Part shown: positions 1-22,356 of the stretch, in pieces
How the letters are laid out: each line of letters begins with the position of its first letter
How positions within the stretch are numbered: position 1 is the first letter of the stretch
Source of the DNA: Iodidimonas sp. SYSU 1G8
GTDB lineage: Bacteria; Pseudomonadota; Alphaproteobacteria; SMXS01
Reading direction: 5' to 3'
DNA: 32,000 bases
NCBI RefSeq assembly: GCF_039655775.1
Contig: NZ_JBBYXJ010000001.1
Location: forward strand, 1,427,208 to 1,459,207
Position numbers and translations under genes: made by a program
Notes under the pieces: model-generated
Told to the model about the DNA's origin: nothing
The model's database searches: none
Seen by the model: the letters and a program-made list of their open reading frames with translations, nothing else

Positions 1-1402
<1,402 letters not shown>

Positions 1403-1626
1403 TGCTAACTCCTTTTGATATCTCTGGTTTACCGATTCCGCACTTCGCGGAGATTGCTCCGCGAGGCGCCAGGATCACTTGCAGGCGTCGCAGAGTCGTG
1501 AACGGTCCAAGCGCTGCGGGCTGATCCTCAGCTACCGTTCGATCACGACCTCTGCTCACCGGGTGCATGGGGAAACCGCGAAACCGGTTTTGGTTCCGGC
1601 GAGACCGCCGCACCGGGCGACCGCGT

Positions 1627-2109: not shown

Positions 2110-2248
2110 GGCGTACCTCAACCTTTCCTGGGATACCGGCCCATCCATATCGCCCGACCCGTGATCGCTTGATGGAAACCGCCTGTAATGTCGTACGACA
2201 GGAACAAGCTGGCTCGGCAGGAGTTCCCACTCGCCACAAGGAGGACGC

Positions 2249-2848: not shown

Positions 2849-2914
2849 CGCGAGACACCGAGTGGCGGCAGGCACGTCGAAGAATGACGCGATCGGTTCC
2901 GAGGCGGGTGACGG

Positions 2915-3307: not shown

Positions 3308-3372
3308 GCCGATATCCCGATTTACCAAAAGCGAGAGATACCACCGGTCGCAACAAATCCGCAATCGAGGCG

Positions 3373-4020
3373 TCAGGGATTGGCGGATCCCAGGTTGTTC
3401 AGGGCCCAGATCGCGGCGGCCGTGCGATTGGGCGCCCCGATCTTCCGGAGAAGCGCCTTCATGTGAACCTTCACCATATTCTCGGTGACGCTCAGATGGA
3501 CGGCAATTCGCTTGTTCGGCTCGCCCCGCGCCAGGCATTCGAGGATGCTTTCTTCCTGGGCCGACAGACTGGGCAGGGCTGGACGGCCCACCCGCGCCGG
3601 CGTGCTGATCAATGTGGGGACGAGTTCGCTCGGCAGCACCTTTTCGCCCATCAGAACCAGCGCGAGAGATTCCCTGAGCGCCGCGGGCCCGACATCCTTC
3701 ACGAGATAGCCGCTGGCGCCCGCCTTCAGGGCCGCCACCAATTGCGGGACCGACAGCTCTGGCGTGAGGGTCACGACCGGTACGTCACTCCAGCGCGCGC
3801 ACAGCGCCGTGAGCGCGCCTTCTTCAGCGCTCGGCGCCGAGAGGGATGACTGCAGGCTGACGATGATGATGTCCGGCTTCTGGCGGCAGGCCGTGATGTC
3901 CCCCAGCGCCGTCAACGAGGCGGCCTCCGCCGTCACCATGAAGTGGGAGTCCGCCAGAAGGCTCTTGAGACCCTCCCTCAGAAGCCGGCTCGGATCCACG
4001 ATCCAGAGACTGTGTTGCAT
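3373..4020 (-). CDS. NarL/FixJ (LuxR-type HTH) response regulator with a degenerate receiver domain, 215 aa
   Basis: Start placed at ATG 4020 (MQHSLWIVDPS...). The C-terminus LSAQEESILECLARGEPNKRIAVHLSVTENMVKVHMKALLRKIGAPNRTAAAIWA is a LuxR/GerE HTH. The receiver keeps the conserved Thr (VVTLT) and Lys (GYLVKD). It reads DP instead of DD at the acidic pocket, and PDIIIVSLQ where the phospho-acceptor Asp is expected. Confidence 0.85.
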   Translation of the reverse strand: MQHSLWIVDPSRLLREGLKSLLADSHFMVTAEAASLTALGDITACRQKPDIIIVSLQSSLSAPSAEEGALTALCARWSDVPVVTLTPELSVPQLVAALKAGASGYLVKDVGPAALRESLALVLMGEKVLPSELVPTLISTPARVGRPALPSLSAQEESILECLARGEPNKRIAVHLSVTENMVKVHMKALLRKIGAPNRTAAAIWALNNLGSANP

Positions 4021-4274
4021 TATGGCTTCCCCGATCCATGGCGCCCCCTTACCCCCATCGCGCAACTATGTGCTTGCTTGATTAAGAAAGCACTAACAGG
4101 GATTAAGACCCGCCAAAATTTCCTGTGAGGGCGACCAGCAAGCGTGAGACGTCCGCGGGACGGGTTACGGCGGCGCCTCAGCGAGAGATACTGACGAGCG
4201 CGCTCTTGGTTCCCGGCATCGCCCCTTTTGGTAGGCGGGTTGTACAGCCTCGCGAGAGGCCAGAACGCGCAAAT

Positions 4275-4291
4275 CCCCGCGTTATGCGGGG
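4275..4291. other. GC-rich stem-loop CCCCGC-GTTAT-GCGGGG in the intergenic region downstream of the helicase gene; possible terminator
   Basis: A perfect 6-bp stem with a 5-nt loop, read directly. On the + strand it is followed by CATTTGTTGTG...GTTTTGATTTGG, and on the - strand by ATTTGCGCGTTC. A second, imperfect hairpin lies at 4321-4343. Neither has a clean U-tract on the strand of the upstream gene. Confidence 0.3.
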
Positions 4292-4427
4292 CATTTGTTG
4301 TGCTGGGTGTGTGTTTTGATTTGGTTGCGGGGACCCGCACCAACCGAGAGTACAGGAGGCTTAAAGCGCTCGTTTAGTGGGCCATCGCCTACCGGCAGCA
4401 GGCCGAGTGAATATGTACTCGCCCTTG

Positions 4428-7400
4428 TCAACGCGGTCTTGGGCGTGGTTTGGGAAGCGCTGCACGCGGTGCACTCGACGGTGGCGGTGTGGTGTTAGCC
4501 GGCATGCGTTGGCATGTATGGGTGATCGTGGCTTCGGCGCCGTCGTCGAGGTAATAGTCCAATCCGGACGATAAATCATAGCGGTGGACCCATTCCTCAC
4601 CGTCCCTCGAAAGCAAAGCCTCGATCCACCGATCGTGGAACTCGCGGTTTGGTCCTTGGGTTCGCTCGATCACTTGGGTTTGCTGCGGCCTCTCCGTTGC
4701 GGGAAAGGCAGCGCGGATCGCCGTCTCTCTGGCAGAGCGATCGCGTCGCCCCGGTTCCTTCGCTCCATCAGGGCGCACGATGAGCTCCAGGCGCTTAGGC
4801 ACGACGCCAGCGTAGGTAATGAGCTGCATTAGGAAAGCTGTCGTGGCAGGAAGGTTGTCCCGAACCTGGCCGTAATTGGTCTGCTGCCGTGCCAGCGCAT
4901 AGGGGTCCCTGATAGTCAGACGCCTGATCTCCGAAGCACCCTTGAGCGCATCAAAGTCTGCCTCGAGACTTCTGCGATCTCCAGGCGCGTATACCGTACG
5001 CTTCGTTTCCTTAATGGAATAAGTCAGCGCCTCGTTGGCCATCGATGCGCCGTCGAGGGCTGCATTGATCGCGTCCAGCAGGTCCGGCGCATCCTTCGTC
5101 CGCCGCCGTCGCACTCTGCCAGGCAACAACTCCTCGAACAATGCCATGTCAGATTGATCGGAGTAGATCAGTAAGCCTGATGCTTGTTCGCCATCGATCA
5201 CGACCCGTGGAAGAGAGGCTGCAATGTCCTTGCGCATTCTGCGAACCTCGACTTGCCCACGCTCAACCAGCGCGGTCAATTGCCGGACGACGACCAGCGC
5301 CGCCGTCGGCAACAGGTCTAGCCGCAACGTACCGACCTCCTCGGTCAGGATGGTGACGCGCCGGTCCGCGCCCTTCTTGCAAAACTCAGAGATGAGTTCG
5401 AACGACTCCGGAACCCGCGTGACATTGCCTTCGTGATCGAGTTCGGCCAGATCCGTTGCCGCGGCCGTCCATAGACGACGTGCTGTCAGGATCAGTCGCG
5501 ATGCACCCCGAACCTCTTCACGAAGTCGCTGGGAGGAGGCATCCGCCCATAGTGGCCCAAAGCGATGATCGAGTTCTATATCGGTCCGCGCCCTTATCAG
5601 CCACGCCAGAACGGTTTCACGCCGGAAATCATCCCAGTTCGCTTGGTTGGAATAATCTCGCAGACATTTGCGGCACGACCCGGAACAGTTCGCTGGGCAA
5701 TCGAGAATGCGCAATGCTTTGTCGACCAGTTCCGACGCGTTGTAATCTTCGCCCAACTTCCGGACGAACCCGGCGCCCCCGGATACGGCGTCATAAAGGA
5801 TCACCTCCGGACGCCCCCCTCGATAGGCGAAAGTGGTGCGCATGTCTCGGCTGTCGCACTTAAGCAGGTCGGCCGCTCCCAGGCGGAGAGCCTCGGAAAG
5901 TGTCCTGATGAAACCGTCTCGCCACTTTTCCTCGTCATCCGGCAAGATATTTTCTGGAACTGGCGGAAGTGCGTCCGCGAAGAGATATCCTCTGACCTCG
6001 GTCTTGAAGACATGGCCAAGGTCGATCAATTCCAGGTTTCCCTTGCAGGGCTGGTCATCCCTGGGGCGCCGATGATCTTCTCCCGTTACATATGGCGCCG
6101 TCTCGCCCCGATGGGCCGCGCGCGCGAATTCACAACGCTGGCAACGGTAAAACCCCGCGCGATGCCGTCCTCTGTTCGCGATCAGCAGCTTGCCCTCGGT
6201 CTGTCGTGACTCCGGATCCGCGAAAGCCTTGAGGAACCATGTTTTGAGCCCTGGGACGTCGGTCGACTTGATCTCGTCCGAATGTGCGCGTGTAATCAGT
6301 TTGGCATCCGACGCCGCGCGGCTTCGTCGCCTCGATACGCCTGGCTCTCGGCCGCGACGGGCCCCGATGGTTGTGACGAAGCCCTTGGGTTCGATGAAAG
6401 GGCGTCGGTCGAAAAAACTGCGTGAACTGCCGCAATTGGAGCACTCGTCGCCGAGGGCGTCCCTGTCGTCATAGGGGATGTGGTCCACATGTGCACATTC
6501 CCGGCATGCCGCGTACCATTGCTTAGGAACAAATTCGTCCGGATACCGCGCAATCCCCCCACTCACCCAGACCCGGTGGCCTGAAACGACTTCTTCGCCT
6601 GGGGCGTACTCGACAATACCAAGAGCCGCATCCCGCGAGAGCTGAAGATCGTCTTCCAATGTCTGGGAGGCGCGTTGTCTTTTCTCGACGCTCTGCAGCA
6701 CCTCGAGAACCACTGAACTTGTCGGAAAACTATATGTCGGTATCAGGGCGTATTCGGAAAGCACATCAACCAGCCGGCGGTTCATGAAATCTTTTATCTC
6801 ATATCCCATTCGCGCTGCGAGCCCCGGATTGTCACCCTCCATTGCTTCCGATCGGCGCGAGTAGAGGGTTCCGCATCGGTCAGCGACCATCAGGGCAAAG
6901 CGCCGCAATTCGAGCAGCAGATCATCAGCAGCTTCCTCCGGGGACCCGAACCCTATCGAAGCTAGGCCCTGCTGGTCTAGATACTCGCGAAGGCTAAAGG
7001 CCTCGAGCAGCCAGCGCTCTCCGTCGTCGCCCTTCAGCCAGTTCTCAAGGGTTCTGAGGAACTCATGGACTGTCGCAAAATGGGGGCCGGGGACCCGAAC
7101 AATTTCCGCTTCGCGCAGAAAGAGGGGAAGAGCATCGGCACCTAGGGCCGGAGCGAACAGGTCGCGCAAGCGTGGTGCAGAAATCTTGTCGCTAGGCAGG
7201 GCGCTACGGAGAAACCCGGCCAGCGCGACGGATCGCTGATGACGGCGGAAGAACACGGGGTTATCGAGTTGTACCCAGGGCGTGGCAGGAGACCGTCCCA
7301 GATACTCCTGGAAGGACACAAAGGATGCCTGGTCGAACTGTCCGGATCGGGCGAGCGTCAGGGTCAGCGGGGACGCCTGCAATCGTCGACCCGCGCGGCC

Positions 7401-10400
7401 TGCCCTTTGCTGGTAGTTGGCGATGGTCGGCGGGACATTTCGACAGAAAACCGCTTCCAGGTCGCCTAGGTCGACGCCCATTTCCATCGTTGTCGAGCAG
7501 CTCAAAAGATTGATCTCGCCATTTCGAAAACGAGTTTCGATCCGGTCTCTCAGTTCCGTGCCGATTGAGGCAGTATGTTCTCTTGCGGTCGCTGTCAGCG
7601 CCTTCGCATGCGTATATCGCCGTGCATAATGGTTCTGTTCCCCTAGGAGTCTTCGGCGCTCATCGGTCATCCTTTCCAGTGCCCCATCGCAGCCAAGTGC
7701 GAGACAGGTACCGGTCAAATTCCGGACGCTGCGGGTCCCGCAGCGGTCGCAGACGAACAGCGGCCGGTCGACTCCATTGACCAGTGTTATCTTGGATAGC
7801 CCGACGCCAAAACCGTTTTTGCCATCTCGGTTTTGTTGCAACAGTCCTTGCTGACACGCCGCCTTGAAAAAGTGCGTTAACAAATTCTTTCGTGTTGGCT
7901 GATCAGTGATACCTGCCTTCTCGATTAGAAGCCTTGAGCGGAAGTGCCGATCGCTCGATGGCAGCCAGGACTCGGTCGCGCCTTCCTTACTCTTCATGAG
8001 GTCTAAGGCCACGGACCGGCCTTTCTGGTTGAACTTGTCGGTCCAGGTATCGGGATCTCCCAGGTCAACCATATTGCTCTGGGATTTTACGATCTGTCGC
8101 CGGCGGCGGACGCCATCCAAAAGCAGGCGGGTCAGTTCTTCTGACTGACTGCTGTTCCAATCCGCCGGAACGAAAGGAGTTATGGCCGTCGCGATATTCC
8201 TGAGGCCGGCGTTCTCATACTCCACCGCCACCAGACCCAGCGACTCAAGTGTCTCACGGGAGGGCCGAGGGAGACAGAACTCGAATAGGATGCGACCCAG
8301 CACTTGAACCTTCACATCCGCGTCATCCAATTCTTCCATCGCGCCGGGCACGCGCCAGTCGAACAACGGCAGACGCTGCCAGTCGTCGCCTTCATTGAGG
8401 CGTCGACATACCTCCGTGCCTGCCCTCTCGATGGCGATCGGGCCCTCCGCCACGCACTGTGTCAGCGCCCGGCGAATGGCTTGATCCATTGCTGCCCGCT
8501 CGAAGAACGGCGCGAAAAACGCAGCATCCTGACGGTTGTCAGAGAACACCAGCAGCTTGCGGCCTTCTGCCGGCAGACGGGTATGGGTGGAAGGCGGCAG
8601 GGCTTCCAGCAACGCCTGAGCGACAACCGAGGCCAGCGCGTCATCTCCGGGATGGATGGGCGTCACAGCCTCAGAACCATCGAGCGGCTTGAAGCCGCAA
8701 TTGGGGCAGACAGGAACAATGGGCGGCTCGTCGTCCGCACCTACGGCTCTCTCGACTCTCTCAAGGGAAAGGACATTTAGAGACCCTTGGTCGTTGGCTA
8801 AAGCGCCCGTTTCCGGGTCGAACCTGAGCTTGGCATTTTCCTGCGCCTCCTCATCCACCGACTCGTCGGCGGCATCCAGCGCTTCGCTTCCGGGTCGCAG
8901 CCGCAGGACTACACGGTCAGAAACCCGCGTTCTGCCGGGTTCGAAGCGAGGTTCGACGATCTGATTGTGGAGCCATCCTTCTACATGCGGTTCACCACAG
9001 TTGCGGCAACAGAGAAGGCTGTACCATTTCCCTCCCACGGAGGACCTGGAGCGACCTACCTCAACATTTGCAATGCCTTCCTGGCTGGTCGCGGAGAGTT
9101 GCACGATAAGCCCGTCCACCCCAGTCGCGGCCAAGTGATGCCGGGCGGGCAACAGGGCGAAGTCATCGGGCGCGGAGCGCGCGGTGACGCCCACGGAGAT
9201 GACCCCAGCCAGTGCCGCGTATGCTGTCTGAAACTCGGCGTTCGGAAAGATCTGTCGCGCTACTTCATCATATCGTTTCCGCCCGTCCCTCAACATCGCC
9301 TCGGTGCGCCTTACCTCGACGTTCCTCTGGAACTTTTCGAGAAGGCCGCTACCCAAGTCCGTAGCGAACTCGTCCAGAAGGAGCGAACCTGGTAGGTCCG
9401 CCTCCTCGATCTCAGTGTTCCAGTCGAACGCGGATGTCGCTCCTAACCCCCGAAGCTTTCCGATCAGGCCGGGCAACTTTGCCCAGGAGCCGGCATCGAG
9501 CGACCAGACTTCGTCTTTTCGGGACAGACCGGCATGTGGCTGACGCTTGCCCGTGATCACACCGCCATCAAACCGTGCGTCGAACAGATGGGATGCGAAT
9601 TGCTTGAGGCGGTCGGCCTCTGATTCGTCAAGGGATGCGCTGGTCCCTACGCAGAAAATCTGTCGGGTCTTGTTGCCGAAAATGCGGTTCTTCAGCTTTC
9701 GCAGCAAGAAAGCCGTCTCGACAGCCTGCGCCCCGGTATATGTATGCACCTCATCAAGAATGAGCGCTTGGAGTTGGCTGCCTTGCAAGAGAGGAGCGTT
9801 CCTGGGCAGGAGCAATACATGCTCGAGCATCGCATAGTTGGTGACAAGGATGTGGGGCGGCTGCGTCAGCATTTCGCCGCGAGACAACAACCAGTTGTCT
9901 AGTGACGCGCCATGCAAGACCTCCATCAGGGTTTCGTTGCGTTCAAGACGTGCCAGCTCCTGCTCCCGGCTGGAACCGGCACGCACTTGCCCCGTAAAAC
10001 GCCCGAACCGAATACCGGGGTCTCCCAGGTCCCTAAGGAGGAGAGGCGCGATCCGGTAGAATAGCTGATCGGTTGCAAGCGCGTTCAGCGGATAGATGAG
10101 AATTGCCCTCACGCCCGGCGCCGACCGGTTTGGCTCCCTCAGCAATCGGTCGATCAAAGGGTAGAGGAAGGCCTCGGTTTTTCCCGAACCGGTACCCGTC
10201 GCGACTAGATAGTTTTTACCCTCGGACGCACCACGGAGCGCCTGCTCCTGGTGTCTGTGCAAACGCCGGTTGAGCAGTTTTCGGCCGTGGTCATGGCTGC
10301 CCAGGCGCAGCCACTCGTCGCAAAGGACCCCTTCTCGCACCAGTTCTGCGAGCGTGGCTCCCTTTTCGTAATCCGGAAGCGCCTCCAGATAGGGGCCCTT

Positions 10401-10559
10401 GACAAGCTCCGTGGCGCTGAGCGCTCCCCTGTATTTCTCTGCCAACACAGGCGAACGGAGCTGAGACACCGGCGCCGTCGTCGCGATAAATCGCGCGATG
10501 GTCCGTTCCAGCTCCTGCTTGAAGAGCATGGGGTCCAACTCATGTCGCGCCTGTGTCAT
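4428..10559 (-). CDS. Giant DEAD/DEAH-box helicase with DUF1998-type zinc-ribbon region and long C-terminal extension (2,043 aa); DruE-like (Druantia)
   Basis: Track ORF 4428..10685. I placed the start at ATG 10559 (MTQARHELDPMLFKQ...), which overlaps the upstream stop as ATGA (10556-10559). Helicase motifs read directly: motif I VATGTGSGKTEAF (nt 10176-10202), motif II LILDEVHTY, FSDNRQDAAFFA, STTMEMGVDLGDL and motif VI YQQRAGRAGRR. Several CxxC pairs follow (CPNCGF, CDRCGT, CRECAH...CSNCGS, CQRCEF). The DUF1998-style ending is ILYDAVSGGAGF...CPANCSGSCRKCLRDYSNQ. About 480 more residues follow. Confidence 0.85.
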   Translation of the reverse strand: MTQARHELDPMLFKQELERTIARFIATTAPVSQLRSPVLAEKYRGALSATELVKGPYLEALPDYEKGATLAELVREGVLCDEWLRLGSHDHGRKLLNRRLHRHQEQALRGASEGKNYLVATGTGSGKTEAFLYPLIDRLLREPNRSAPGVRAILIYPLNALATDQLFYRIAPLLLRDLGDPGIRFGRFTGQVRAGSSREQELARLERNETLMEVLHGASLDNWLLSRGEMLTQPPHILVTNYAMLEHVLLLPRNAPLLQGSQLQALILDEVHTYTGAQAVETAFLLRKLKNRIFGNKTRQIFCVGTSASLDESEADRLKQFASHLFDARFDGGVITGKRQPHAGLSRKDEVWSLDAGSWAKLPGLIGKLRGLGATSAFDWNTEIEEADLPGSLLLDEFATDLGSGLLEKFQRNVEVRRTEAMLRDGRKRYDEVARQIFPNAEFQTAYAALAGVISVGVTARSAPDDFALLPARHHLAATGVDGLIVQLSATSQEGIANVEVGRSRSSVGGKWYSLLCCRNCGEPHVEGWLHNQIVEPRFEPGRTRVSDRVVLRLRPGSEALDAADESVDEEAQENAKLRFDPETGALANDQGSLNVLSLERVERAVGADDEPPIVPVCPNCGFKPLDGSEAVTPIHPGDDALASVVAQALLEALPPSTHTRLPAEGRKLLVFSDNRQDAAFFAPFFERAAMDQAIRRALTQCVAEGPIAIERAGTEVCRRLNEGDDWQRLPLFDWRVPGAMEELDDADVKVQVLGRILFEFCLPRPSRETLESLGLVAVEYENAGLRNIATAITPFVPADWNSSQSEELTRLLLDGVRRRRQIVKSQSNMVDLGDPDTWTDKFNQKGRSVALDLMKSKEGATESWLPSSDRHFRSRLLIEKAGITDQPTRKNLLTHFFKAACQQGLLQQNRDGKNGFGVGLSKITLVNGVDRPLFVCDRCGTRSVRNLTGTCLALGCDGALERMTDERRRLLGEQNHYARRYTHAKALTATAREHTASIGTELRDRIETRFRNGEINLLSCSTTMEMGVDLGDLEAVFCRNVPPTIANYQQRAGRAGRRLQASPLTLTLARSGQFDQASFVSFQEYLGRSPATPWVQLDNPVFFRRHQRSVALAGFLRSALPSDKISAPRLRDLFAPALGADALPLFLREAEIVRVPGPHFATVHEFLRTLENWLKGDDGERWLLEAFSLREYLDQQGLASIGFGSPEEAADDLLLELRRFALMVADRCGTLYSRRSEAMEGDNPGLAARMGYEIKDFMNRRLVDVLSEYALIPTYSFPTSSVVLEVLQSVEKRQRASQTLEDDLQLSRDAALGIVEYAPGEEVVSGHRVWVSGGIARYPDEFVPKQWYAACRECAHVDHIPYDDRDALGDECSNCGSSRSFFDRRPFIEPKGFVTTIGARRGREPGVSRRRSRAASDAKLITRAHSDEIKSTDVPGLKTWFLKAFADPESRQTEGKLLIANRGRHRAGFYRCQRCEFARAAHRGETAPYVTGEDHRRPRDDQPCKGNLELIDLGHVFKTEVRGYLFADALPPVPENILPDDEEKWRDGFIRTLSEALRLGAADLLKCDSRDMRTTFAYRGGRPEVILYDAVSGGAGFVRKLGEDYNASELVDKALRILDCPANCSGSCRKCLRDYSNQANWDDFRRETVLAWLIRARTDIELDHRFGPLWADASSQRLREEVRGASRLILTARRLWTAAATDLAELDHEGNVTRVPESFELISEFCKKGADRRVTILTEEVGTLRLDLLPTAALVVVRQLTALVERGQVEVRRMRKDIAASLPRVVIDGEQASGLLIYSDQSDMALFEELLPGRVRRRRTKDAPDLLDAINAALDGASMANEALTYSIKETKRTVYAPGDRRSLEADFDALKGASEIRRLTIRDPYALARQQTNYGQVRDNLPATTAFLMQLITYAGVVPKRLELIVRPDGAKEPGRRDRSARETAIRAAFPATERPQQTQVIERTQGPNREFHDRWIEALLSRDGEEWVHRYDLSSGLDYYLDDGAEATITHTCQRMPANTTPPPSSAPRAALPKPRPRPR

Positions 10560-13500
10560 GACCAGACCTCCATTGCCTGATTGAGGTACCAAGAGAGCAA
10601 TTCGGGACCGAGACGGCAGAGAAAGCCGACTTCGGCGATGGGGGATCGCCTTGAGTCGACGTCTTCGAAGGTCCGGGCGCACCATGCATCCACTGCGCCT
10701 GGCATGGCCCTGTTCATTCGGGATGCCTTTGCGAGTTCCGCGAAAAAGGCTGGCGCTGCTTCGACGATCGACGCGCCCCTGCTGACCGCCGGTGGGGATT
10801 CAGGAACGCGATAGTTGGGTACGTCGCCCGAGCGGCCCAGCTCCCGATAGGCCAAGGAGCAGAGAGCGGCGGCATGGCTGATGCGCTCCTGGTTCGCCTC
10901 CCCTCGGCTTGCCCGCTCGACCCTGTCAGCGAAGCGTCTGCAAGCCTCGTCGTGACTCGCGAGGCGCTCGTTTTTTGCAGGAGGGTTATCCAGCCATGAT
11001 GCCAGGTTTCTCGCCCCCTCATCGTCGGCGTCGCGCAGGTTACCTGCAAGCGCGGTGCGGTCGGCGGAAAACAGCCCCGGCCAGACTTCGAGCGGATGAC
11101 GGAGCGGAACCCATGTCGGATTGGCGTCCGGGGGCGGCGCCACGCCTGCCGACCTAATCAACACATCGCGAGCTTCCGTATCACCGAGCGCTGCGGCGTC
11201 AGAGAGCTCTCTGCCTAGGACCGACCAGAGACGTTCTAGCGCGACGAGGTGATGATGCCAGCATTCTGGCGCCCAGCAGATGGCAAGGGCACTGCTCAAT
11301 CTTGAAAAGGCCAGCGCCTTCGTATCCTCGGGTAGCTCCATAAGTTCAAGACTATCGAGCGGCACAAGCGTGCCGTTTTCCTTCGCAACCGCCAAACCGT
11401 AGTGATCGCCTCTTGCCGACCGCAACGGGCTGGGCTGGGCGCCTGGCCTGAGACGTGCTTGCGCCTCGAAAAGCCAGACTCCGTCGGCGATGCTGCGTTC
11501 GGCGCAGTAGAGGCGCCACACGCCTTGAACCTGTTCCTGCGAAACGCCATCGTTCCGCGACAGCCGCTCCACGTCCCCTGTCAACAGGTTGATGCCTTCG
11601 AATTCGAAAAGGCTGACGTCGTCGTCGAACGTGCATTCGAGTACCGAGCGGCCTCCTCTTCGCTCCACGCCAGCGCGGCGAGGCGTGCAGGGCTGCGCGA
11701 TGATCGCAAGGGTTATGGCACTGACGGGATTTCCGCCGGGATAAAGTTCGACTTTCGCATCACCTTCATCGCCATGCAGTCCGGTCAGGGACAGGCGGCG
11801 GACACCGAGAGCGCCGAAAGCGCGGGTCTCGACCCTTGTCCCGAACGCGAGCGATGCCTCTCGGTCGTCGCAATAGACGCGGAGGTAAAGCGGGCGTCCG
11901 TCATCGAGGATCGTACTGCCTCGATCCAGGCCGCGCCGGTTCGCGCCCTCTTCCAGCTCGAGAAATATCCCCGGCCTCGGCAACCGGATACGGTAATGGC
12001 TCCCCTCAGCGCGGCGAAACGCCAGTTCGACCGATCTGTCCACGCCGGCTCCTATCGTTATGCCGCGGTCCCGGACGACCAGTCCAATGGAGGCCGACTG
12101 GTCGAAATTTTCGGGCACAGAACCCACGAAACAGCCGTCCTCCAGGCAGTCGAGCCTCGGCCACAGCCAAGCGCTCGCCGCCTGAACCAGCGCTCTTTGC
12201 TCGCCTGACCTCACCAGAGCCGCCGTAAGACGGTCGAAATTGGCACCAGGTTCCAGCACCGGAAAATCGGCGCGTCCGCTGCCCGCCTCGTCGAAAACGA
12301 CCGCTGACCTGCTCAGTTCGCCCGTCGACGTTCGCAGCACGACCTCGTATGGCGTGTTGAGTAGCAGCATTTCCCTGGGCAAGGCGCTTTCGACGCCCAG
12401 TGATGCCCCGGAAAAGACCGGCACGCCGCCGATGTCGCAGACGGCTGGACTCGACCAGATAAGGCGCGGCACCGCATGAGCCATAATCGCATGTTCCGAA
12501 CCGTCTGCTAGCCGGACGACGCGGCGGTCGCCATCGAACATTTCCACGGTCAGCATCCATAGCCCCGACAGCGACTGTGATGCCGGTTCCTGGTCGCAAT
12601 TGAACGGTTCCCGCGACACCAGATAAAGCTGCCCCGCCGGTGCTTCCAGACTGACGTGCCGCCCGGAAGCCGCATCGAAGATGCTAAACCGGGATGCTGT
12701 CCAGATGGGGAATTGCCGCGATGTCACCGGCTCATCGTCTGCCTCGAAATCAAGCCGCCGGGTCTCTACCGACACGCTGTCTTCGAATGAAACCGGCAGT
12801 TCCTCGCCGGCCTTTATCACCACCTCGCCGCTCCAGGAGCCCCGAACCGTCCACGTCCAGCCTGTTGCCTGGAGAGGCGTGACGATGACGATCTCGTCGC
12901 CATTGAACAGAACTTCCGGCCTCGGCCCGAGGCGCGCATAGCTGTCTCGCACCAGACTCCTACTGGTATTGATCGCCGAGGCGAACCGCGCCTCGAAAGC
13001 AGACTGTGGAGGATTTCCGTCTGCGAGGCGGCCAAAAGCCAGCGAATGCCATCCCAGCACGTCGTGCCTGAGCACCCTTGGCAGGTTCTTCGGTCCCCGC
13101 TGCTCCAGTCGGTCGACAAGAGCCTCATGCCAGAACCGAAGGCCATCGGGATCATGCGGATCGGGTGCCCCCAACTCCCTTTCGACCTGCAGACAGGCCG
13201 AGGCCAGGTCCGGCAGTACGGTATCGACCGGGCCGGCCTGGAGCTGGTATTCGTTCCGGCGTCTCCATGTTCCGGTCTCCCGCAGTTGCAGTTCTGTAAG
13301 AACGGGTAGCCCCAGATCCACGCAGGCGCGGCGGAAAGCTTGGTAGAAGCGCTCCCTGTCGAGTGGAGATAATTTTGAGCCGAGTTCAGCCTCGAAATGA
13401 GGATAGAGTTCGCCTTGGCCGTCGAGCCCCGTCTCCCGCTGCGCCAGGGACGCGAAATAGGCAACGGCAACGGCAGGAGACAGTCGGAAGAGCGGCTCGA

Positions 13501-13687
13501 TGCGAGCTATAGGCTGCGGTCCTTGCAGAAAGTCGTGAACCCCCCGAGCAACCTCTGCCGCGAGTTCATACTGACCCAGGAATGGCGACGCATCTACCAG
13601 AGTGAGCCGCGCTCGCAACGCCGCTTCGGCCTGTTTTATGGCCGCGTTCCTCACGAGTGAAATGGTTTCCGCCAGATCAAATTTCAT
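10556..13687 (-). CDS. Large protein of unknown function (1,043 aa), translationally coupled to the downstream helicase; DruH-position partner
   Basis: Track ORF 10556..13699 (GTG). I prefer ATG 13687 (MKFDLAETISLVRN...), which has GGTGGGGG a few nt upstream. It is a long uninterrupted frame with high third-position GC, and its stop overlaps the helicase ATG. I recognise no catalytic or binding motif. Confidence 0.8.
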   Translation of the reverse strand: MKFDLAETISLVRNAAIKQAEAALRARLTLVDASPFLGQYELAAEVARGVHDFLQGPQPIARIEPLFRLSPAVAVAYFASLAQRETGLDGQGELYPHFEAELGSKLSPLDRERFYQAFRRACVDLGLPVLTELQLRETGTWRRRNEYQLQAGPVDTVLPDLASACLQVERELGAPDPHDPDGLRFWHEALVDRLEQRGPKNLPRVLRHDVLGWHSLAFGRLADGNPPQSAFEARFASAINTSRSLVRDSYARLGPRPEVLFNGDEIVIVTPLQATGWTWTVRGSWSGEVVIKAGEELPVSFEDSVSVETRRLDFEADDEPVTSRQFPIWTASRFSIFDAASGRHVSLEAPAGQLYLVSREPFNCDQEPASQSLSGLWMLTVEMFDGDRRVVRLADGSEHAIMAHAVPRLIWSSPAVCDIGGVPVFSGASLGVESALPREMLLLNTPYEVVLRTSTGELSRSAVVFDEAGSGRADFPVLEPGANFDRLTAALVRSGEQRALVQAASAWLWPRLDCLEDGCFVGSVPENFDQSASIGLVVRDRGITIGAGVDRSVELAFRRAEGSHYRIRLPRPGIFLELEEGANRRGLDRGSTILDDGRPLYLRVYCDDREASLAFGTRVETRAFGALGVRRLSLTGLHGDEGDAKVELYPGGNPVSAITLAIIAQPCTPRRAGVERRGGRSVLECTFDDDVSLFEFEGINLLTGDVERLSRNDGVSQEQVQGVWRLYCAERSIADGVWLFEAQARLRPGAQPSPLRSARGDHYGLAVAKENGTLVPLDSLELMELPEDTKALAFSRLSSALAICWAPECWHHHLVALERLWSVLGRELSDAAALGDTEARDVLIRSAGVAPPPDANPTWVPLRHPLEVWPGLFSADRTALAGNLRDADDEGARNLASWLDNPPAKNERLASHDEACRRFADRVERASRGEANQERISHAAALCSLAYRELGRSGDVPNYRVPESPPAVSRGASIVEAAPAFFAELAKASRMNRAMPGAVDAWCARTFEDVDSRRSPIAEVGFLCRLGPELLSWYLNQAMEVWS

Positions 13688-14056
13688 TACGGCCCCCACC
13701 GCCTAAATCTTCGAACTTCACTGTAGCTTATCCGGGAATCCAAAAGCCCCTTTTTGAGAACCGGGCAACAACGCGCCCTAATTTACAGGGCCTGCATGGC
13801 TTGGCCTGCCCCTGAAAAGTGGTCCGGTTTCAACGATAGTTCATGGTTGGCCTTTGCACCAATGGTAACGCGCCTGGGTTAGCTGGTGCCGGTTGCGGGG
13901 CCGGCCGCGCAGGGACGTAGGTCTCGAGAGCTGGCGGCCGGCACCTTAACACCTTGACCAGCCACCCTCTTCGTCGATCACGAAGCATTAGCTTAGGACT
14001 AAACTGACCGATCCGAGTTGTCTGCCACTACTACTGTTTTGGGCGAGGAGTGGGCG

Positions 14057-18650: not shown

Positions 18651-20458
18651 TCCATCTCTCTCAGAACGAGAAGAGACTTCACCTCATCAAGCATTGTTCG
18701 AGTGCGCGTCCGTATCGCGCACTCGTTCCAGTCGTTACGGGTTGCGAGAGCGCGATTCAGGTACAGGCCGTTCTTGTAGCCTATATGGTCGCCCGCTTCA
18801 TTAACCCGGTCCCGCTTCTTCTCGAAGGTCATTGTGCCTAGACGGGAATTGTAACCGCTGAGAGTTAGATTGCCCAGTTGATGCGCACTGCGCCGCCTAA
18901 TGTCCTCAGCGCCTTCGCCCTTGCCGGCTGCTTCAAGCATAGAGATCCAGTCGTCGGATAGGTTCTCTGTTTTCGGCAGGATGTGCTCAACTGTGAAGAT
19001 AGGGCGGCCATGCGGATCCTGCGCCCATAGGTCGCGCCGATTTTCCAGTGTCTGATGAGCCTCTTCCAGCTTGCACAGCATGAAGCGCGTTACATCGTAG
19101 TTTTCCACATATACATCGCCAGCAAGCTTCGCATCACAGATCTCTTGTAACGGTGCTTTGCTCATAAGCCATTGACGCGACGCCTTAATAAAATCGTTCA
19201 GGTCCTCGTATCCTCCCTTACGGAGAGGACCAATAAGATGGGCGACTAACTCCATGAACATCGGATCGAGTTCGCGAGTAGGCGGCATATCGGTCAGATT
19301 GCGCCAGAAGAACCACTTGGTGAGCAAAGACGCCAAGCGGTGAACTGCATCGCCCTCACTCCATTTCTGGCTTTGTGCAACCTGGCAGGTCCAAAGCAAG
19401 AATGCGTAAGCCGGCGCGGCCCCCAGGCGTTGGAGGTCCTGCAGGGCTGCTGCAGCGGCGTCGCCCCATTGCTCTCGCGCGGCGGTAGGGTTTAGCAACG
19501 CCGAATAGGTCTTTCCTTTAGTTTGCAATGCTTCAAACAGCCAGACTGGGCGTTTGCGCAGCAAAGTGTCGTAGATGGTAATCAGATTTGAGCGTGTGGC
19601 TCGGGTGCAGCCTTTAACCTCGACCTGCTTGAGGTACTTGAACATGTTGTACAACTGGCGCAGGAAACGCTCCTGAACCGCCGGGTCGGGCAGCGCGTCG
19701 ACAAGGTCCTTCCACTCTTCAAACGCACGGTCGATGCCGTAGTCGGGGCGCTTGTCCAGCTCGGCCAATAGGTTGTTCTTGATGATGTCGATGGCCGAGA
19801 GTGGAATGCCCCGGTTGTTGATCGACTCGAACAACATGAAAGCGTCAGAGTGGCTGCGCACCTCGATCTTCACCAACATTGCGGCCTTAAGCTTTTCCAG
19901 CAGAGCCAGTGCTTGATCTTGCGAAAGACCATCGAGACGCTCAGAGAAATAATTGTAGGCGCGCGCGATGCGACGGTTACCAAAGTAGCTCAAGCCCTTC
20001 GGGGCCTTTACCTGCTTGGGAAACAAATCGCTCAGCACTTTCTGAAAGTCGGATTTGTTCTGCGCTTGCTCACTGGGTTCTAGGCGCCAGTGTCCGGTCG
20101 CGCGAACGAAAATGCGGCTTTCCAGGTTGTCTAGCTCGACCAGCAGACGGCGATCCGGGTTCGGAATGGCGTTAAGCTTGTTGTAAAACGCACAGAACAG
20201 CAGGCTGATGGTGGTAAACCGCTGTTGGCCGTCGATCAACTCGAGCCGACCACCCGCCATGCTGTCCTGCTGGGCATTCACGCAAATGATGGAACCCAAG
20301 AAGTGCCCGCTGGGTGACTCTTCCAGGTCGTTGAATAGGGAATCCCAGTTCTTGGCGCCCCACACATACTCGCGTTGGTACTTCGGAATGAAGAACGACG
20401 TTGCGCCATCGGGGCTGAAATAGAAGCTGACGGGCAGCGCTTTGACGTCCTGGATCAT
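18647..20458 (-). CDS. DUF262 + DUF1524 (GmrSD-family) type IV restriction endonuclease-like protein, BrxU-like (603 aa)
   Basis: Start placed at ATG 20458 (MIQDVKALPVSFYF...), which overlaps the pglX C-half stop as ATGA. The 78 upstream codons of the track ORF lie inside pglX. DUF262 strings: IPKYQREYVWG and LIDGQQRFTT. DUF1524 His-Me finger strings: FTVEHILPK and HQLGNLTLSGYNSRLG. Confidence 0.85.
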   Translation of the reverse strand: MIQDVKALPVSFYFSPDGATSFFIPKYQREYVWGAKNWDSLFNDLEESPSGHFLGSIICVNAQQDSMAGGRLELIDGQQRFTTISLLFCAFYNKLNAIPNPDRRLLVELDNLESRIFVRATGHWRLEPSEQAQNKSDFQKVLSDLFPKQVKAPKGLSYFGNRRIARAYNYFSERLDGLSQDQALALLEKLKAAMLVKIEVRSHSDAFMLFESINNRGIPLSAIDIIKNNLLAELDKRPDYGIDRAFEEWKDLVDALPDPAVQERFLRQLYNMFKYLKQVEVKGCTRATRSNLITIYDTLLRKRPVWLFEALQTKGKTYSALLNPTAAREQWGDAAAAALQDLQRLGAAPAYAFLLWTCQVAQSQKWSEGDAVHRLASLLTKWFFWRNLTDMPPTRELDPMFMELVAHLIGPLRKGGYEDLNDFIKASRQWLMSKAPLQEICDAKLAGDVYVENYDVTRFMLCKLEEAHQTLENRRDLWAQDPHGRPIFTVEHILPKTENLSDDWISMLEAAGKGEGAEDIRRRSAHQLGNLTLSGYNSRLGTMTFEKKRDRVNEAGDHIGYKNGLYLNRALATRNDWNECAIRTRTRTMLDEVKSLLVLREME

Positions 20459-22356
20459 TCTTCGCCCCCAGCCTTCTTTTTGCGGGCCTTCTTCGGCTGG
20501 TTTTCCGGCTCGACGTACAGGTGCTCCAGGTCGTGCGCGATGGCCAGCGACTTGTCGGTCTTGCATTTCTCGCGCACGCGGTCGGGCCAATAGGCCATGG
20601 CCAGATGCGCCCAGTCGAAGTCGCCCTTTACCAGCCTGGCCCAGGTGTCCTTCAGAACCTTCTGCCAAGGCTTGTGGCGGAACAGCTGCCATAGGGGGGC
20701 TGCAGTGATTTGGACGCCGTCGTCATGGTTCGGTCGATAGGCCGGCGCGATCTGCAGCAGGGTGTCGCGCAGCTCTATCAGCTCCAGCTCGAGGGTTTGG
20801 AGCCCCTCGAACGCCTTCTCGTCGTCGCGCGAGCGGGCGGCGCCCTTGTCGCGCAGCGTGGTGGCATCGCGGCTGACTTCGCGAAGCTTCCGATCCACGA
20901 AGTCGTTCACGGCGGAATAGAGCGTCTGGCTGGTCAGGCTGGGGTAGTAGAGCCAGAGCGTGTAGCTGCCTGAACTGGTCGAGATCGGCCAGTAGATCGG
21001 TGCCTTGCGGCGGCTCTTGCTGTATTGCCTCAGGTGCAGGGGGAAGAAGTCCCGTTGGAGCCAGCGGCGCATATCGGCGGGCACTGGGGCTTCGACGCGG
21101 GCGAGCACTTCCTCGATCAGGCGGGCGAGGTCATGCGGATGCCCCTGGTCGTCCACCAGGATGCCGGAATGGGCATGGAACGGCTCCGCACCGTCAGGCA
21201 GCATGCCGGGGCTCTTGGCGGGCAGCGGGTCAAAGGGTTCCGGTTCGGGCGGGGCAGCGCGCTCGCCAGTGGCCAGGCGCCAGTCGAAACGGCTGAAAGC
21301 GACGCCCGCAGCCCAGCTGAGCAGTCCGTCAGTTTGGTCTATCGCTTCGGCGCCATCGTCGTCTTCGCTATAGTCGGCATCCTCAGTAGTGTCGCTTGCA
21401 TCCTCGTCCGCCGTGCCAGACAACCCGAGCGCAGCGGCGCGGTCTTCGTCGCTGAACCCGTAAAGATCAAAGGCGATGTCATCGATCTCGGCCTGGATGA
21501 CAGCCAGCTCGGCTTCAATCGACGGCGGGTCGTAGTCTCCAAGACGTGCGCGCAACGCCGCGGGCAAATGAAATGCGTGTGAGGTTTCCGATACGGTGTC
21601 GAGCCCTCTTTTGAGAGACCAGGCCCGCAGTCCGTGTTCCTTCAGCTGAGTTGAAATATCCCGCCTCAACTCTGGCCAGGGCATGATTTGGAGGATTCCA
21701 ACGATAAATTCTGGATATCCAAACCGACCTAAAGCCGTCTTAAAGAGATAGTCAAATGGCGAACTGTTGAACAGTGCCAGTGTACTTAGCTCTTCCTTTG
21801 GCTCTGGAAACGCAGAATAGCCTCTAACAGAGAATACGCATTCTCTCGGAAGCGCTTGAGGCGAAAACCTCTTGGCGCGGAGAGGCCATGTCAAACCAGC
21901 CCTCCGAAAGTACTCAATATTTTGAGGGCGTGAATTAAGTTTTCCAGTGTCAGGATGAAAGAAGTTTCGAATTTCTGCTCCCTGGTTTCTCCAATTCACC
22001 GTTAGAAAGATGTCGTGATAGAATGGCGAAAATGAACCACCCTTTGCAAACCCAGGCCAGCGATCAACGTCTGCAGTTATTTCCCACCATGCCCTAACAA
22101 AGCGGAAGTCATCAGCTGTTGCCAGCCCTTGTCTAACTGCACGCCCGTTGCTTTCAAACTGAGAAAAATCTTGAAAAATTCGGCGAAGTTTTTCGCTAAC
22201 CCAATAAGCGAACGGGGCACCTGGAACCGACCGAAACGCGTAAGGCTCAACTTCGCAGATCTGCGGAGAGTTAAGATTATTTCGAAAGCCGTTACAGGCT
22301 TCGCTCAGGCTGCGGGATTTGTCTGCTTCCGACAACAATCTCAGGAAAACCGTCAT
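20455..22356 (-). CDS. pglX: PglX C-terminal half (target-recognition and C-terminal regions) as a separate 633-aa ORF
   Basis: ATG 22356 overlaps the stop of the N-half as ATGA (22353-22356). It begins with the PFAYWVSEKLRRIF-type segment that in single-chain type IIG/BREX methyltransferases follows the catalytic domain. It contains an acidic tract at nt 21328-21423. Confidence 0.8.
   Translation of the reverse strand: MTVFLRLLSEADKSRSLSEACNGFRNNLNSPQICEVEPYAFRSVPGAPFAYWVSEKLRRIFQDFSQFESNGRAVRQGLATADDFRFVRAWWEITADVDRWPGFAKGGSFSPFYHDIFLTVNWRNQGAEIRNFFHPDTGKLNSRPQNIEYFRRAGLTWPLRAKRFSPQALPRECVFSVRGYSAFPEPKEELSTLALFNSSPFDYLFKTALGRFGYPEFIVGILQIMPWPELRRDISTQLKEHGLRAWSLKRGLDTVSETSHAFHLPAALRARLGDYDPPSIEAELAVIQAEIDDIAFDLYGFSDEDRAAALGLSGTADEDASDTTEDADYSEDDDGAEAIDQTDGLLSWAAGVAFSRFDWRLATGERAAPPEPEPFDPLPAKSPGMLPDGAEPFHAHSGILVDDQGHPHDLARLIEEVLARVEAPVPADMRRWLQRDFFPLHLRQYSKSRRKAPIYWPISTSSGSYTLWLYYPSLTSQTLYSAVNDFVDRKLREVSRDATTLRDKGAARSRDDEKAFEGLQTLELELIELRDTLLQIAPAYRPNHDDGVQITAAPLWQLFRHKPWQKVLKDTWARLVKGDFDWAHLAMAYWPDRVREKCKTDKSLAIAHDLEHLYVEPENQPKKARKKKAGGEE

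What the first reader, a model, noticed from the sequence alone, without database searches (positions are those of the whole stretch)
4428..13687. Two-gene cassette (1,043-aa unknown + 2,043-aa DEAD/DEAH-DUF1998 helicase): Druantia type III-like or a new helicase defence pair
The two ORFs are co-oriented with the BREX operon, 369 nt downstream of it, and are stop/start coupled (ATGA at 10556-10559). The second has a full SF2 helicase core. It also has the DUF1998-type Cys-rich region (FSDNRQDAAFFA; GGAGF...CSGSCRKCLRDYSNQ) in a ~2,000-aa protein. The first has no recognisable motif. Among described systems, only Druantia type III (druH + druE, as I recall from Doron et al. 2018) combines a ~2,000-aa DUF1998 helicase with a single ~1,000-aa unknown partner. 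How Druantia works is poorly understood. If the 1,043-aa protein is not a DruH homologue, the cassette would be an undescribed system.
Basis: partly seen in the sequence, partly recalled or inferred. Interest (0 to 1): 0.65.

Follow-up and report, generated by a model that had tools for sequence, protein, structure and literature searches.

The report
Divergent Druantia-III-like helicase defence pair
Two coupled giant genes next to a BREX operon form a Druantia-type anti-phage helicase-nuclease pair, from a lineage whose partner protein has the predicted shape of DruH but is missed by every current DruH sequence model.

Summary
On the minus strand, a 1,043-aa ORF (13687..10556) and a 2,043-aa ORF (10559..4428) overlap by ATGA. 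They lie 369 nt downstream of brxL of a complete type I BREX operon.

The helicase is a DruE: PADLOC DruE models score up to E 4e-164, and it has DEAD, Helicase_C and MZB/DUF1998 domains. Its C-terminal region is PLD-like, with an H1975-x-R1977...S1997/S1998 motif like the P. aeruginosa DruE (PaDruE) active site.

The partner hits no PADLOC, Pfam or NCBIfam model, whereas E. coli DruH hits ten PADLOC DruH models. [quoted passage not shown] That is the architecture published for DruH.

The partner belongs to a family of about 240 clusters, annotated "hypothetical" wherever a source names them. In all 11 loci examined it sits directly upstream of a DruE from a separate clade, only 25-28% identical to E. 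coli-type DruE.

Sequence links to canonical DruH are weak:
- Colinear profile similarity in the N-terminal and middle regions.
- Two family members with fused canonical DruH N-terminal modules.

Verdict: a divergent Druantia type III-like variant that PADLOC's DruH models do not recognise. It is not a categorically new system. Function is inferred, not tested.

The parts
10556..13687 (-). DruH-like partner gene (1,043 aa), founding member here of the 'A4' partner family
   Evidence: ORF and translation. No PADLOC, Pfam or NCBIfam hit. Family of 242 cluster representatives. AF2 pLDDT 91.8, pTM 0.85. Directly upstream of a DruE in all 11 loci examined.
12944..13687 (-). Partner N-terminal alpha-helical domain (aa 1-248)
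   Evidence: AF2 secondary structure. Weak colinear similarity to the canonical DruH N-domain: hhalign probability 20.8%, score 30.5, against 240 column shuffles with mean 13.0, sd 2.3 and maximum 21.6.
11363..12916 (-). Partner beta-sandwich array (aa 258-775, about six Ig/Fn3-like domains)
   Evidence: AF2 strands. Top Foldseek PDB hits are Ig/Fn3 arrays: OSMR/gp130, MAG, ICAM. Domain count is my estimate from the strand pattern.
10562..11359 (-). Partner C-terminal alpha-helical domain (aa 777-1042)
   Evidence: AF2. No detectable similarity to the DruH C-domain. In canonical DruH this domain contacts the DruE stalk (bioRxiv 10.64898/2026.05.13.724313).
4428..10559 (-). druE-like gene (2,043 aa): YprA/MrfA-type SF2 helicase with MZB and a C-terminal PLD-like region
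   Evidence: PADLOC DruE1 E 4e-164 and DruE3 E 3e-148. Pfam DEAD 102-316, Helicase_C 990-1058, MZB 1554-1633. More than 3,000 homologues.
10176..10190 (-). Helicase motif I (Walker A), GSGKT, aa 124-128
9744..9755 (-). Helicase motif II, DEVH, aa 269-272
7386..7409 (-). Helicase motif VI, QRAGRAGR, aa 1051-1058
5661..5900 (-). MZB / DUF1998 zinc-binding domain (aa 1554-1633, includes CSGSCRKC)
   Evidence: Pfam PF09369, E 1.1e-11. Motif position.
4431..5642 (-). C-terminal tandem PLD-like region (aa 1640-2043)
   Evidence: AF2 pLDDT 85.3. Top Foldseek hits are MITD1 (PLD-like), PPK1 and the PLD-family nuclease NgoAVII. Invariant F-H-D-R and D-P in an 18-sequence alignment.
4629..4637 (-). Putative PLD catalytic H1975-D-R1977 (followed by S1997/S1998)
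   Evidence: Positions. Same H-x-R...S spacing as PaDruE His1999/Arg2001/Ser2022, reported in bioRxiv 10.64898/2026.05.13.724313.
13688..14056 (-). 369-nt spacer between brxL and the partner gene; presumed location of the cassette's own promoter, or a read-through region
   Evidence: Sequence. No sigma-70-like or intrinsic-terminator-like site found, so the transcription unit is unresolved.

Best explanation
The cassette is a self-contained two-gene anti-phage module of the Druantia kind (type III-like layout). It belongs to a DruE lineage separate from the well-studied E. coli / P. aeruginosa type III-A lineage.

Shown here:
- Gene 2 encodes a DruE-family SF2 helicase with intact ATPase and helicase motifs, an MZB zinc domain and a C-terminal tandem PLD-like region that keeps an H-x-R...S putative active site.
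- Gene 1 is translationally coupled to gene 2. Its product is predicted with high confidence to have the DruH architecture: a helical N-domain, about six Ig-like domains and a helical C-domain.
- The pair is conserved as a unit across Alpha- and Betaproteobacteria and other phyla, in defence and mobile-element contexts.

Inferred by analogy with type III-A work:
- The partner acts as the DNA-end or ssDNA sensor/processor and binds DruE through its C-terminal helical domain.
- That binding releases an auto-inhibited DruE.
- DruE then loads on ssDNA-dsDNA junctions of phage replication or recombination intermediates, translocates 3'->5' and unwinds.
- Together with its PLD-like nuclease, it destroys phage DNA without killing the cell.
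For: DruE identity:
- PADLOC DruE models score up to E 4e-164. Pfam finds DEAD, Helicase_C and MZB. Helicase motifs are intact.
- The C-terminal model has pLDDT 85, with MITD1, PPK1 and NgoAVII (all PLD fold) as top PDB matches. The same MITD1 resemblance and H/R/S site are reported for PaDruE.

Partner:
- AF2 pLDDT 91.8, pTM 0.85. Helical 1-248, beta array 258-775, helical 777-1042.
- Foldseek hits are gp130, OSMR, ICAM and MAG arrays, the same kind of hits reported for DruH.

Module conservation:
- The partner sits immediately upstream of a DruE in the window and in L001, the P0007 contig, L003, L004, L014, L016, L018, L019, the P0195 contig and L020.
- Neighbours include BREX, GmrSD, MADS, type I RM, TIR, IS elements and recombinases.
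- In L014 the pair alone is inserted inside a suf operon.

Links to DruH:
- N-domain hhalign score is 30.5, against shuffles with mean 13.0 and maximum 21.6; 0 of 240 shuffles reach it.
- The middle region gives a colinear score of 18.9, against shuffles of 13.3 +/- 1.7; 0 of 40 reach it.
- P0224 and P0250 fuse canonical DruH N-terminal modules (hhalign probability 98.4%, E 9e-15) to a complete partner-type protein. In P0224 a DruE follows.

The DruE tree splits exactly by partner family, which indicates co-evolving pairs.
Against: - No DruH model (10 or more PADLOC DruH3 models; NCBIfam STY4851/ECs_5259) detects the partner or 43 other members of its family.
- Full-length profile-profile probability is only 2.5%. 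The C-domain shows nothing.
- The DruE is about as distant from type III-A DruE as from ARMADA ArmC: roughly 300 versus 250 BLAST bits, and 26% versus 31% N-terminal identity.
- The solved E. coli DruH (9tud) did not appear among the top Foldseek hits. I cannot tell whether it is in that library.
- The PLD domains were reported dispensable in one E. coli study.
- No experiment on this lineage is known to me. The mechanism is by analogy only.
Confidence: 0.75

Rival explanations
1. A distinct helicase defence type. The partner is not a DruH homologue but an independently recruited, architecturally convergent Ig-array protein. It would sense a different trigger, such as a phage structural protein rather than DNA ends. 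The system would then merit its own Druantia type.
For: - Complete failure of all DruH HMMs, with a working positive control.
- No C-domain similarity.
- The DruE clade is separate and equidistant from the type I, type III-A and ArmC helicases.
- In P0224 and P0250 the canonical DruH N-module is added to the partner-type N-domain rather than replacing it. This suggests the two N-domains are not equivalent.
- In M. smegmatis a tail protein was reported as the activator of a type III system.
Against: - Same size, same three-part architecture and same gene order and coupling as druH-druE.
- Two independent, colinear, above-shuffle profile similarities.
- The fusion shows that the two families work in the same context.
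Confidence: 0.2
2. An accessory module of the adjacent BREX system, functionally dependent on it in the way BrxHI/BrxHII helicases are, rather than an autonomous defence system.
For: - Co-oriented and 369 nt after brxL, with no terminator-like or promoter-like site detected in the gap.
- In Microvirga (L003) the pair also directly follows BREX genes (PglZ, BrxD-like, BrxHI-like).
- DruE-type helicases carry a BrxA-like inserted domain, according to PMC12458937.
Against: - Nine of the 11 loci examined have no BREX genes next to the pair.
- In L014 the pair alone is inserted in a suf operon.
- Canonical druHE is sufficient for defence on a plasmid.
- The consensus scans are weak evidence in a 60% GC organism.
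Confidence: 0.08
3. A housekeeping DNA-repair helicase (MrfA/YprA or Lhr type) with an accessory protein.
For: The helicase core and MZB domain are shared with MrfA (PDB 6znp, E 3.7e-17). NCBIfam gives weak partial hits to Lhr-like models, far below their cut-offs.
Against: - All NCBIfam repair-helicase scores are more than tenfold below their cut-offs.
- The protein is about 2.7 times the length of MrfA. It has DruE-specific insertions and a PLD-like tail.
- Distribution is patchy, and the pair sits in islands or beside mobile-element genes.
Confidence: 0.02

Closest known systems
Druantia type III-A (druH-druE of E. coli ATCC 8739/EDL933 and P. aeruginosa; PDB 9tu7-9tuc for DruE, 9tud for DruH)
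   Same: - Two genes, partner first, with translationally coupled or adjacent starts.
- A ~2,000-aa DruE with DEAD/Helicase_C/MZB and a C-terminal tandem PLD-like region carrying H-x-R...S.
- A ~1,050-1,150-aa partner with a helical N-domain, about six Ig-like domains and a helical C-domain.
- Defence-island location.
   Different: - The DruE is only 25-28% identical in the N-terminal 405 aligned columns and forms a separate clade.
- BLAST finds no similarity in the PLD region.
- The partner is not detected by PADLOC DruH3 or by the NCBIfam STY4851/ECs_5259 model. Only marginal profile similarity exists.
Druantia type III-B / 'type III-like' branch (Bell et al. 2025, PMC12458937; M. smegmatis MSMEG_1253/1254, PMC13316683)
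   Same: - A DruE branch phylogenetically distinct from III-A.
- DruE proteins of that branch 'occasionally' carry PLD domains and most often none.
- The window's clade likewise mixes ~1,960-2,040-aa PLD-bearing forms with ~1,630-aa compact forms that share the same partner family.
   Different: - I could not retrieve the III-B representative (GIH50614.1) or MSMEG_1253/1254, so membership is untested.
- The window DruE carries the PLD-like tail that typical III-B DruE lacks.
- The named members found here are Proteobacteria, not Actinobacteria.
ARMADA type II (ArmA-D; ArmC is a YprA-family helicase)
   Same: ArmC is as similar to the window DruE as E. coli DruE is. Both have the same YprA-family core with inserted domains.
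   Different: There is no BrxHII-like helicase, no dedicated PglX-like methyltransferase and no GajB-like ArmD belonging to the pair. The neighbouring PglX is part of a complete type I BREX operon. ARMADA has no DruH-like partner.
Druantia types I, II and IV
   Same: DruE-family helicase. The PADLOC DruE1 model gives the top score.
   Different: No DruA-D, DruM/F/G or DruF/L homologues anywhere in the window. The Ralstonia SL3022 locus of this same lineage was listed as an 'incomplete' type I system in PMC7251935. This work shows it has the A4-type partner instead.

Membership tests
DruE (Druantia YprA/MrfA-like helicase) | Significant match to DruE profile HMMs | tested here: met
   PADLOC DruE1 E 4e-164, DruE3 E 3e-148, DruE2 E 1.5e-100, DruE4 E 3.6e-89.
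DruE (Druantia YprA/MrfA-like helicase) | SF2 core (DEAD + Helicase_C) split by a large insertion, plus an MZB/DUF1998 domain, with catalytic motifs intact | tested here: met
   Pfam DEAD 102-316, Helicase_C 990-1058, MZB 1554-1633. GSGKT, DEVH, QRAGRAGR, seven CxxC motifs.
DruE, type III-A architecture | C-terminal tandem PLD-like domains with a putative active site | tested here: met
   AF2 plus Foldseek: MITD1 E 2.7e-5, PPK1, NgoAVII. H1975-x-R1977...S1997/S1998 compared with PaDruE H1999/R2001/S2022. Catalytic activity was not tested.
DruE, canonical type III clade | Full-length, top-scoring match to DruE3 models and clustering with E. coli-type DruE | tested here: not met
   The DruE3 match is partial (494 bits, aa 991-1708), against 2,185 bits over aa 6-2102 for E. 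coli DruE. Separate NJ clade; 26% identity.
DruH (PADLOC DruH3; NCBIfam STY4851/ECs_5259; Pfam YjiT_N) | Match to DruH sequence models | tested here: not met
   No PADLOC hit even at E<=10. None for 44 family members. None in NCBIfam at E<=0.01. E. coli DruH hits 10 DruH3 models. My own DruH profile against the family is negative, except for two fusion proteins. Pfam YjiT_N is absent from the local Pfam copy.
DruH (PADLOC DruH3; NCBIfam STY4851/ECs_5259; Pfam YjiT_N) | Remote homology by profile-profile comparison | tested here: inconclusive
   Full length: probability 2.5%. N-domain: probability 20.8%, with 0 of 240 shuffles reaching its score. Middle region: colinear, 0 of 40 shuffles. C-domain: none.
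DruH (PADLOC DruH3; NCBIfam STY4851/ECs_5259; Pfam YjiT_N) | Architecture: globular/helical N-domain, six Ig-like domains, helical C-domain, about 1,100 aa | tested here: met
   AF2 model with pLDDT 91.8, compared with the cryo-EM descriptions. The count of about six Ig-like domains is estimated from the strand pattern, not from coordinates.
DruH (PADLOC DruH3; NCBIfam STY4851/ECs_5259; Pfam YjiT_N) | Structural superposition on solved DruH (PDB 9tud) | not testable with these tools
   9tud exists in the PDB sequence copy. It was not among the Foldseek hits listed. Whether the Foldseek library, which holds releases up to 2026-04-08, contains it is unknown.
DruH (PADLOC DruH3; NCBIfam STY4851/ECs_5259; Pfam YjiT_N) | ssDNA binding or 3'-5' exonuclease activity, and binding to DruE | not testable with these tools
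   Biochemical properties reported for type III-A only.
Druantia type III system | Two-gene operon with the partner immediately upstream of druE | tested here: met
   ATGA overlap in the window. Same layout in 10 other loci.
Druantia type III system | Confers phage resistance that needs both genes | not testable with these tools
   Needs plaque assays.
Druantia types I / II / IV | DruA-D, or DruM/F/G, or DruF/L present beside DruE | tested here: not met
   None of these PADLOC models hits any protein scanned in the window.
ARMADA | YprA helicase together with a BrxHII-like helicase and a PglX-like methyltransferase (plus a GajB-like helicase in type II) | tested here: not met
   The neighbouring genes form a complete BREX type I set: BrxA, BrxB, BrxC, PglX, PglZ, BrxL. 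No BrxHII-like or UvrD-like gene is in the window.

The most novel reading that the evidence does not exclude
The partner family is not a diverged DruH. It would be an independently evolved, or anciently split, Ig-array sensor that pairs with its own DruE clade. That would make a separate Druantia type, present in roughly 240 protein clusters, that PADLOC's DruH models miss. It might have a trigger or DNA-processing activity different from type III-A. The rare fusions with canonical DruH N-modules would then mark two distinct functional modules that can be combined.
Probability: 0.2. Interest if true: 0.55.

Novelty: new variant of a known kind. Interest (0 to 1): 0.4.

Why it matters
- Detection. 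PADLOC-DB v2.0.0 would report this locus as an orphan DruE, and NCBI annotates every named partner seen here as 'hypothetical protein'. The Ralstonia SL3022 locus of this same lineage was earlier listed as an 'incomplete type I Druantia'. Recognising the partner family would let this lineage be annotated as complete two-gene systems. It would also add a second, very divergent DruH-like family for comparison.
- Mechanism. The type III-A reports disagree on DruH. It is described as a 3'-5' exonuclease, as an ATP-gated ssDNA binder, or as a scaffold. A partner that keeps the fold but almost none of the sequence shows which features are really conserved: very few residues, for example G152, W509, P525, N527, F557 and R990. 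It could help decide which activity is essential.
- Defence-island biology. The direct BREX-Druantia juxtaposition, seen twice, is a candidate for synergy tests.

Tried and rejected
1. The word-indexed protein search for the partner found only 3 proteins. Repeating it with a 44-sequence profile found only 2, so that search was wasted. The exhaustive HMM search was what revealed the family.
With 7 close sequences it gave only two GTDB loci and nothing in viral contigs.
3. tblastn of the partner against 72,556 plasmids found only the Ralstonia megaplasmid.
4. PDB sequence searches with partner profiles gave nothing meaningful.
5. The organism could not be identified. The window's own proteins are masked in the look-up, and there are no tRNA genes.
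6. The local Pfam copy lacks YjiT_N and YjiV_N, so that membership test could not be run.
7. Promoter and terminator scans of the brxL-partner gap found nothing. The transcription unit is unresolved.
8. Considered and rejected:
   - Type I, II or IV Druantia: no accessory genes present.
   - ARMADA: the neighbouring PglX belongs to a complete BREX operon.
   - MrfA/Lhr housekeeping repair: ruled out by context and size.
   - The E. coli plasmid hit H17: this turned out to be ARMADA, not Druantia.
Full report
OBSERVATION

The window carries two very long ORFs on the minus strand. The first runs from ATG 13687 to a stop ending at 10556 and encodes 1,043 aa. A GTG four codons upstream extends the mechanical ORF, but homologues of 1,041-1,043 aa align from Met1. 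The second runs from ATG 10559 to a stop ending at 4428 and encodes 2,043 aa.

The start of the second gene overlaps the stop of the first in ATGA (10559-10556), with GGAGG 9-13 nt upstream. An alternative start at 10685 is not supported: the 62%-identical homologue P0005 (2,040 aa) aligns end to end with the 2,043-aa version.

Upstream and co-oriented lies a complete type I BREX set: BrxA, BrxB, BrxC, PglX (as two ORFs), a GmrSD-family enzyme, PglZ and BrxL. The brxL stop ends at 14057, so the gap to the pair is 369 nt.

THE HELICASE IS A DruE, BUT NOT A CANONICAL TYPE III-A DruE

- PADLOC gives DruE1 E 4e-164, DruE3 E 3e-148, DruE2 E 1.5e-100 and DruE4 E 3.6e-89.
- Pfam gives DEAD (102-316), Helicase_C (990-1058) and MZB/DUF1998 (1554-1633).
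- NCBIfam repair-helicase models score far below their cut-offs.

As a control I fetched the E. coli O157:H7 druHE locus (L006). E. coli DruE matches the DruE3 model over its full length with 2,185 bits and matches DruE1 with 575 bits. The window protein matches every DruE model only partially, at about 500 bits. By BLAST it shares about 300 bits in three fragments with E. coli DruE and about 250 bits with ARMADA ArmC. In contrast it is 36-62% identical over nearly its whole length to a graded series of homologues.

THE C-TERMINAL 400 RESIDUES ARE PLD-LIKE

BLAST finds no similarity between this region and E. coli DruE. An 18-sequence alignment shows invariant F-H-D-R and D-P. AlphaFold2 gives pLDDT 85.3. 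The best PDB matches are MITD1 (PLD-like, E 2.7e-5), polyphosphate kinase PLD-fold domains and the PLD-family nuclease NgoAVII.

Loeff et al. describe the two PLD-like domains of P. aeruginosa DruE as MITD1-like, with a site that includes His1999, Arg2001 and Ser2022. The window has H1975, R1977 and S1997/S1998 at the same spacing. So the domain architecture is that of type III-A, even though the sequence lineage is different.

THE PARTNER

No PADLOC, Pfam or NCBIfam model hits it, even at E<=10 for PADLOC. The positive control works: E. coli DruH (annotated 'STY4851/ECs_5259 family protein') hits ten PADLOC DruH3 models with E from 0 to 2e-20.

The word-indexed search found only three relatives. 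An exhaustive HMM search of 1.84 billion representatives found 242 clusters at E<=1e-3 and 60 at E<=1e-30, mostly proteins of 1,040-1,170 aa. None of 44 diverse members hits any PADLOC model. Every member that carries a source name is called 'hypothetical protein'; the two with an organism name are from Alsobacter and Azospirillum.

With a 91-sequence alignment, AlphaFold2 predicts the window protein at pLDDT 91.8 and pTM 0.85. It has an alpha-helical domain (1-248), a run of beta-sandwich domains (258-775, about six by the strand pattern) and a second alpha-helical domain (777-1042). Foldseek against the PDB returns Ig/Fn3 arrays: OSMR/gp130, MAG, ICAM, contactins.

Three independent cryo-EM studies describe DruH in just this way. 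[quoted passage not shown]

IS THE PARTNER HOMOLOGOUS TO DruH AT THE SEQUENCE LEVEL?

I assembled seven divergent canonical DruH sequences, from E. coli and from Sinorhizobium, Pseudomonas, Methylocystis, Rhizobium, Marinobacter and Azotobacter plasmids. Each is encoded next to a DruE.

- Full-length profile-profile comparison is not significant: probability 2.5%.
- N-domains alone give probability 20.8%, E 1e-3 and score 30.5. Column shuffles of the DruH alignment give mean 13.0, sd 2.3 and maximum 21.6, and 0 of 240 reach the real score. The alignment is colinear (16-112 against 37-127).
- The middle region gives a colinear match scoring 18.9, against shuffles of 13.3 +/- 1.7; 0 of 40 reach it.
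- The C-domains show nothing.

A further link comes from two members of the partner family, P0224 (1,464 aa) and P0250 (1,290 aa). They carry N-terminal extensions made of one or two copies of the canonical DruH N-terminal module (hhalign probability 98.4%, E 9e-15). P0224 is pre-annotated with Pfam YjiT_N. A complete partner-type protein follows the extension, and in P0224 a DruE gene follows that.

Taken together, I regard remote homology as likely but not demonstrated.

THE PAIR IS A CONSERVED, MOBILE, TWO-GENE MODULE

In every locus I examined, the partner-family gene lies immediately upstream of a DruE:
- the window;
- L001, a JGI metagenome;
- the P0007 contig;
- L003, Microvirga;
- L004, the Ralstonia solanacearum SL3022 megaplasmid;
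- L014/L015 and L016, where the DruE is a compact ~1,635-aa form without the PLD tail;
- L018, Allosphingosinicella;
- L019, Azospirillum;
- the P0195 contig;
- L020.

Neighbours include BREX (twice), GmrSD, a MADS component, type I RM, TIR and AAA_13 proteins, IS elements, recombinases and AlpA/primase-type mobile-element genes. In L014 the pair alone is inserted between sufD and sufC.

A neighbour-joining tree of the DruE N-terminal 405 aligned columns separates two clades that coincide exactly with the two partner families. Identity between the clades is 25-28%. This indicates long co-evolution of each helicase with its partner.

RELATION TO THE LITERATURE

Bell et al. (PMC12458937) and Himpich et al. 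distinguish type III-A from a phylogenetically distinct 'type III-like / III-B' branch. DruE proteins of that branch most often lack a nuclease domain but occasionally carry PLD domains. The window's clade mixes PLD-bearing and compact DruE forms, so it fits that description. I could not obtain the III-B representative (GIH50614.1) or M. smegmatis MSMEG_1253/1254 to test membership.

The Ralstonia SL3022 locus of this lineage was earlier listed as an incomplete type I Druantia system.

MECHANISM (INFERRED)

For type III-A the following are reported:
- DruE is an auto-inhibited dimeric 3'->5' helicase. It engages ssDNA or ss-ds junctions, and in one study it degrades DNA through its PLD site.
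- DruH binds ssDNA in a way that ATP competes with, and/or trims 3' ends. It binds the DruE stalk through its C-terminal helical domain.
- Defence is direct and not abortive.
- The M. smegmatis system is described differently: it blocks phage DNA circularisation, is activated by a tail protein and shows abortive features.

I infer the same division of labour for the window pair. Only the domain content, motif integrity, gene coupling and context are shown here.

RIVALS

- A truly separate type with a non-homologous partner: about 0.2.
- A BREX accessory: about 0.08. This rests on adjacency in 2 of 11 loci and on the lack of a detected terminator.
- Housekeeping repair: about 0.02.

VERDICT

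This is a real and correctly described feature. It is best filed as a divergent, Druantia type III-like variant whose partner family PADLOC's and NCBI's DruH models do not recognise. It is interesting for annotation and for comparative mechanism. It is not categorically new.

Noticed in passing
window 20455-24254 (-): PglX of the BREX operon is encoded as two 633-aa ORFs (24254..22353 and 22356..20455) that overlap by ATGA. Each half matches its own PADLOC PglX model (PDLC02526 / PDLC02532) as well as the two halves of the full-length model PDLC02527. This may be a natural split or a frameshifted (possibly phase-variable) methyltransferase.
   Followed up: partly
window 18647-20692 (-): A GmrSD-family (DUF262/DUF1524) type IV restriction enzyme lies between pglX and pglZ inside the BREX operon (Pfam GmrSD_N E 8.8e-38, GmrSD_C E 4.9e-16). 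It recalls BrxU-type BREX add-ons. The longest ORF overlaps the pglX C-half by about 238 nt, and the matches start at about residue 96, so the true start is probably downstream.
   Followed up: partly
P0224 (L020 8001-12395) and P0250: Two partner-family proteins carry one or two extra N-terminal copies of the canonical DruH N-terminal module (Pfam YjiT_N), fused to a complete partner-type protein. This fusion links the two DruE-partner families.
   Followed up: yes
L014 3467-10902 (and L015): A compact version of the pair (835-aa partner + 1,633-aa DruE without the PLD tail) is inserted between sufD and sufC of a suf operon. The 835-aa partner is pre-annotated with Pfam Ribosomal_S5 / Ribosomal_S5_C hits, which is unexpected for this family.
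   Followed up: no
L001 19284-23099 and the P0007 contig (locus coordinates 411-4590): In the two closest relatives of the window pair, a ~700-aa UvrD-like helicase, a ~255-aa protein and a ~300-356-aa protein (with an HNH_2 hit in L001) flank the pair in two different arrangements. This may be another defence module. It is absent from the window.
   Followed up: no
L003 1-4475: In Microvirga pakistanensis the homologous pair also directly follows BREX-type genes (PglZ, a BrxC/BrxD-family ATPase, a BrxHI-like helicase). This is a second BREX-Druantia-like juxtaposition.
   Followed up: partly
window 29239-29778 (-) and 4020-4343 (-): Two small co-oriented ORFs have no family hits. One (179 aa) overlaps the brxA start by 4 nt. 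The other (107 aa) lies just downstream of druE. Neither was investigated further.
   Followed up: no
window 24258-28115 (-): The mechanical BrxC ORF starts at TTG 28115, inside brxB. The PADLOC BrxC match begins at residue 84, so the real start is probably about 250 nt downstream.
   Followed up: no
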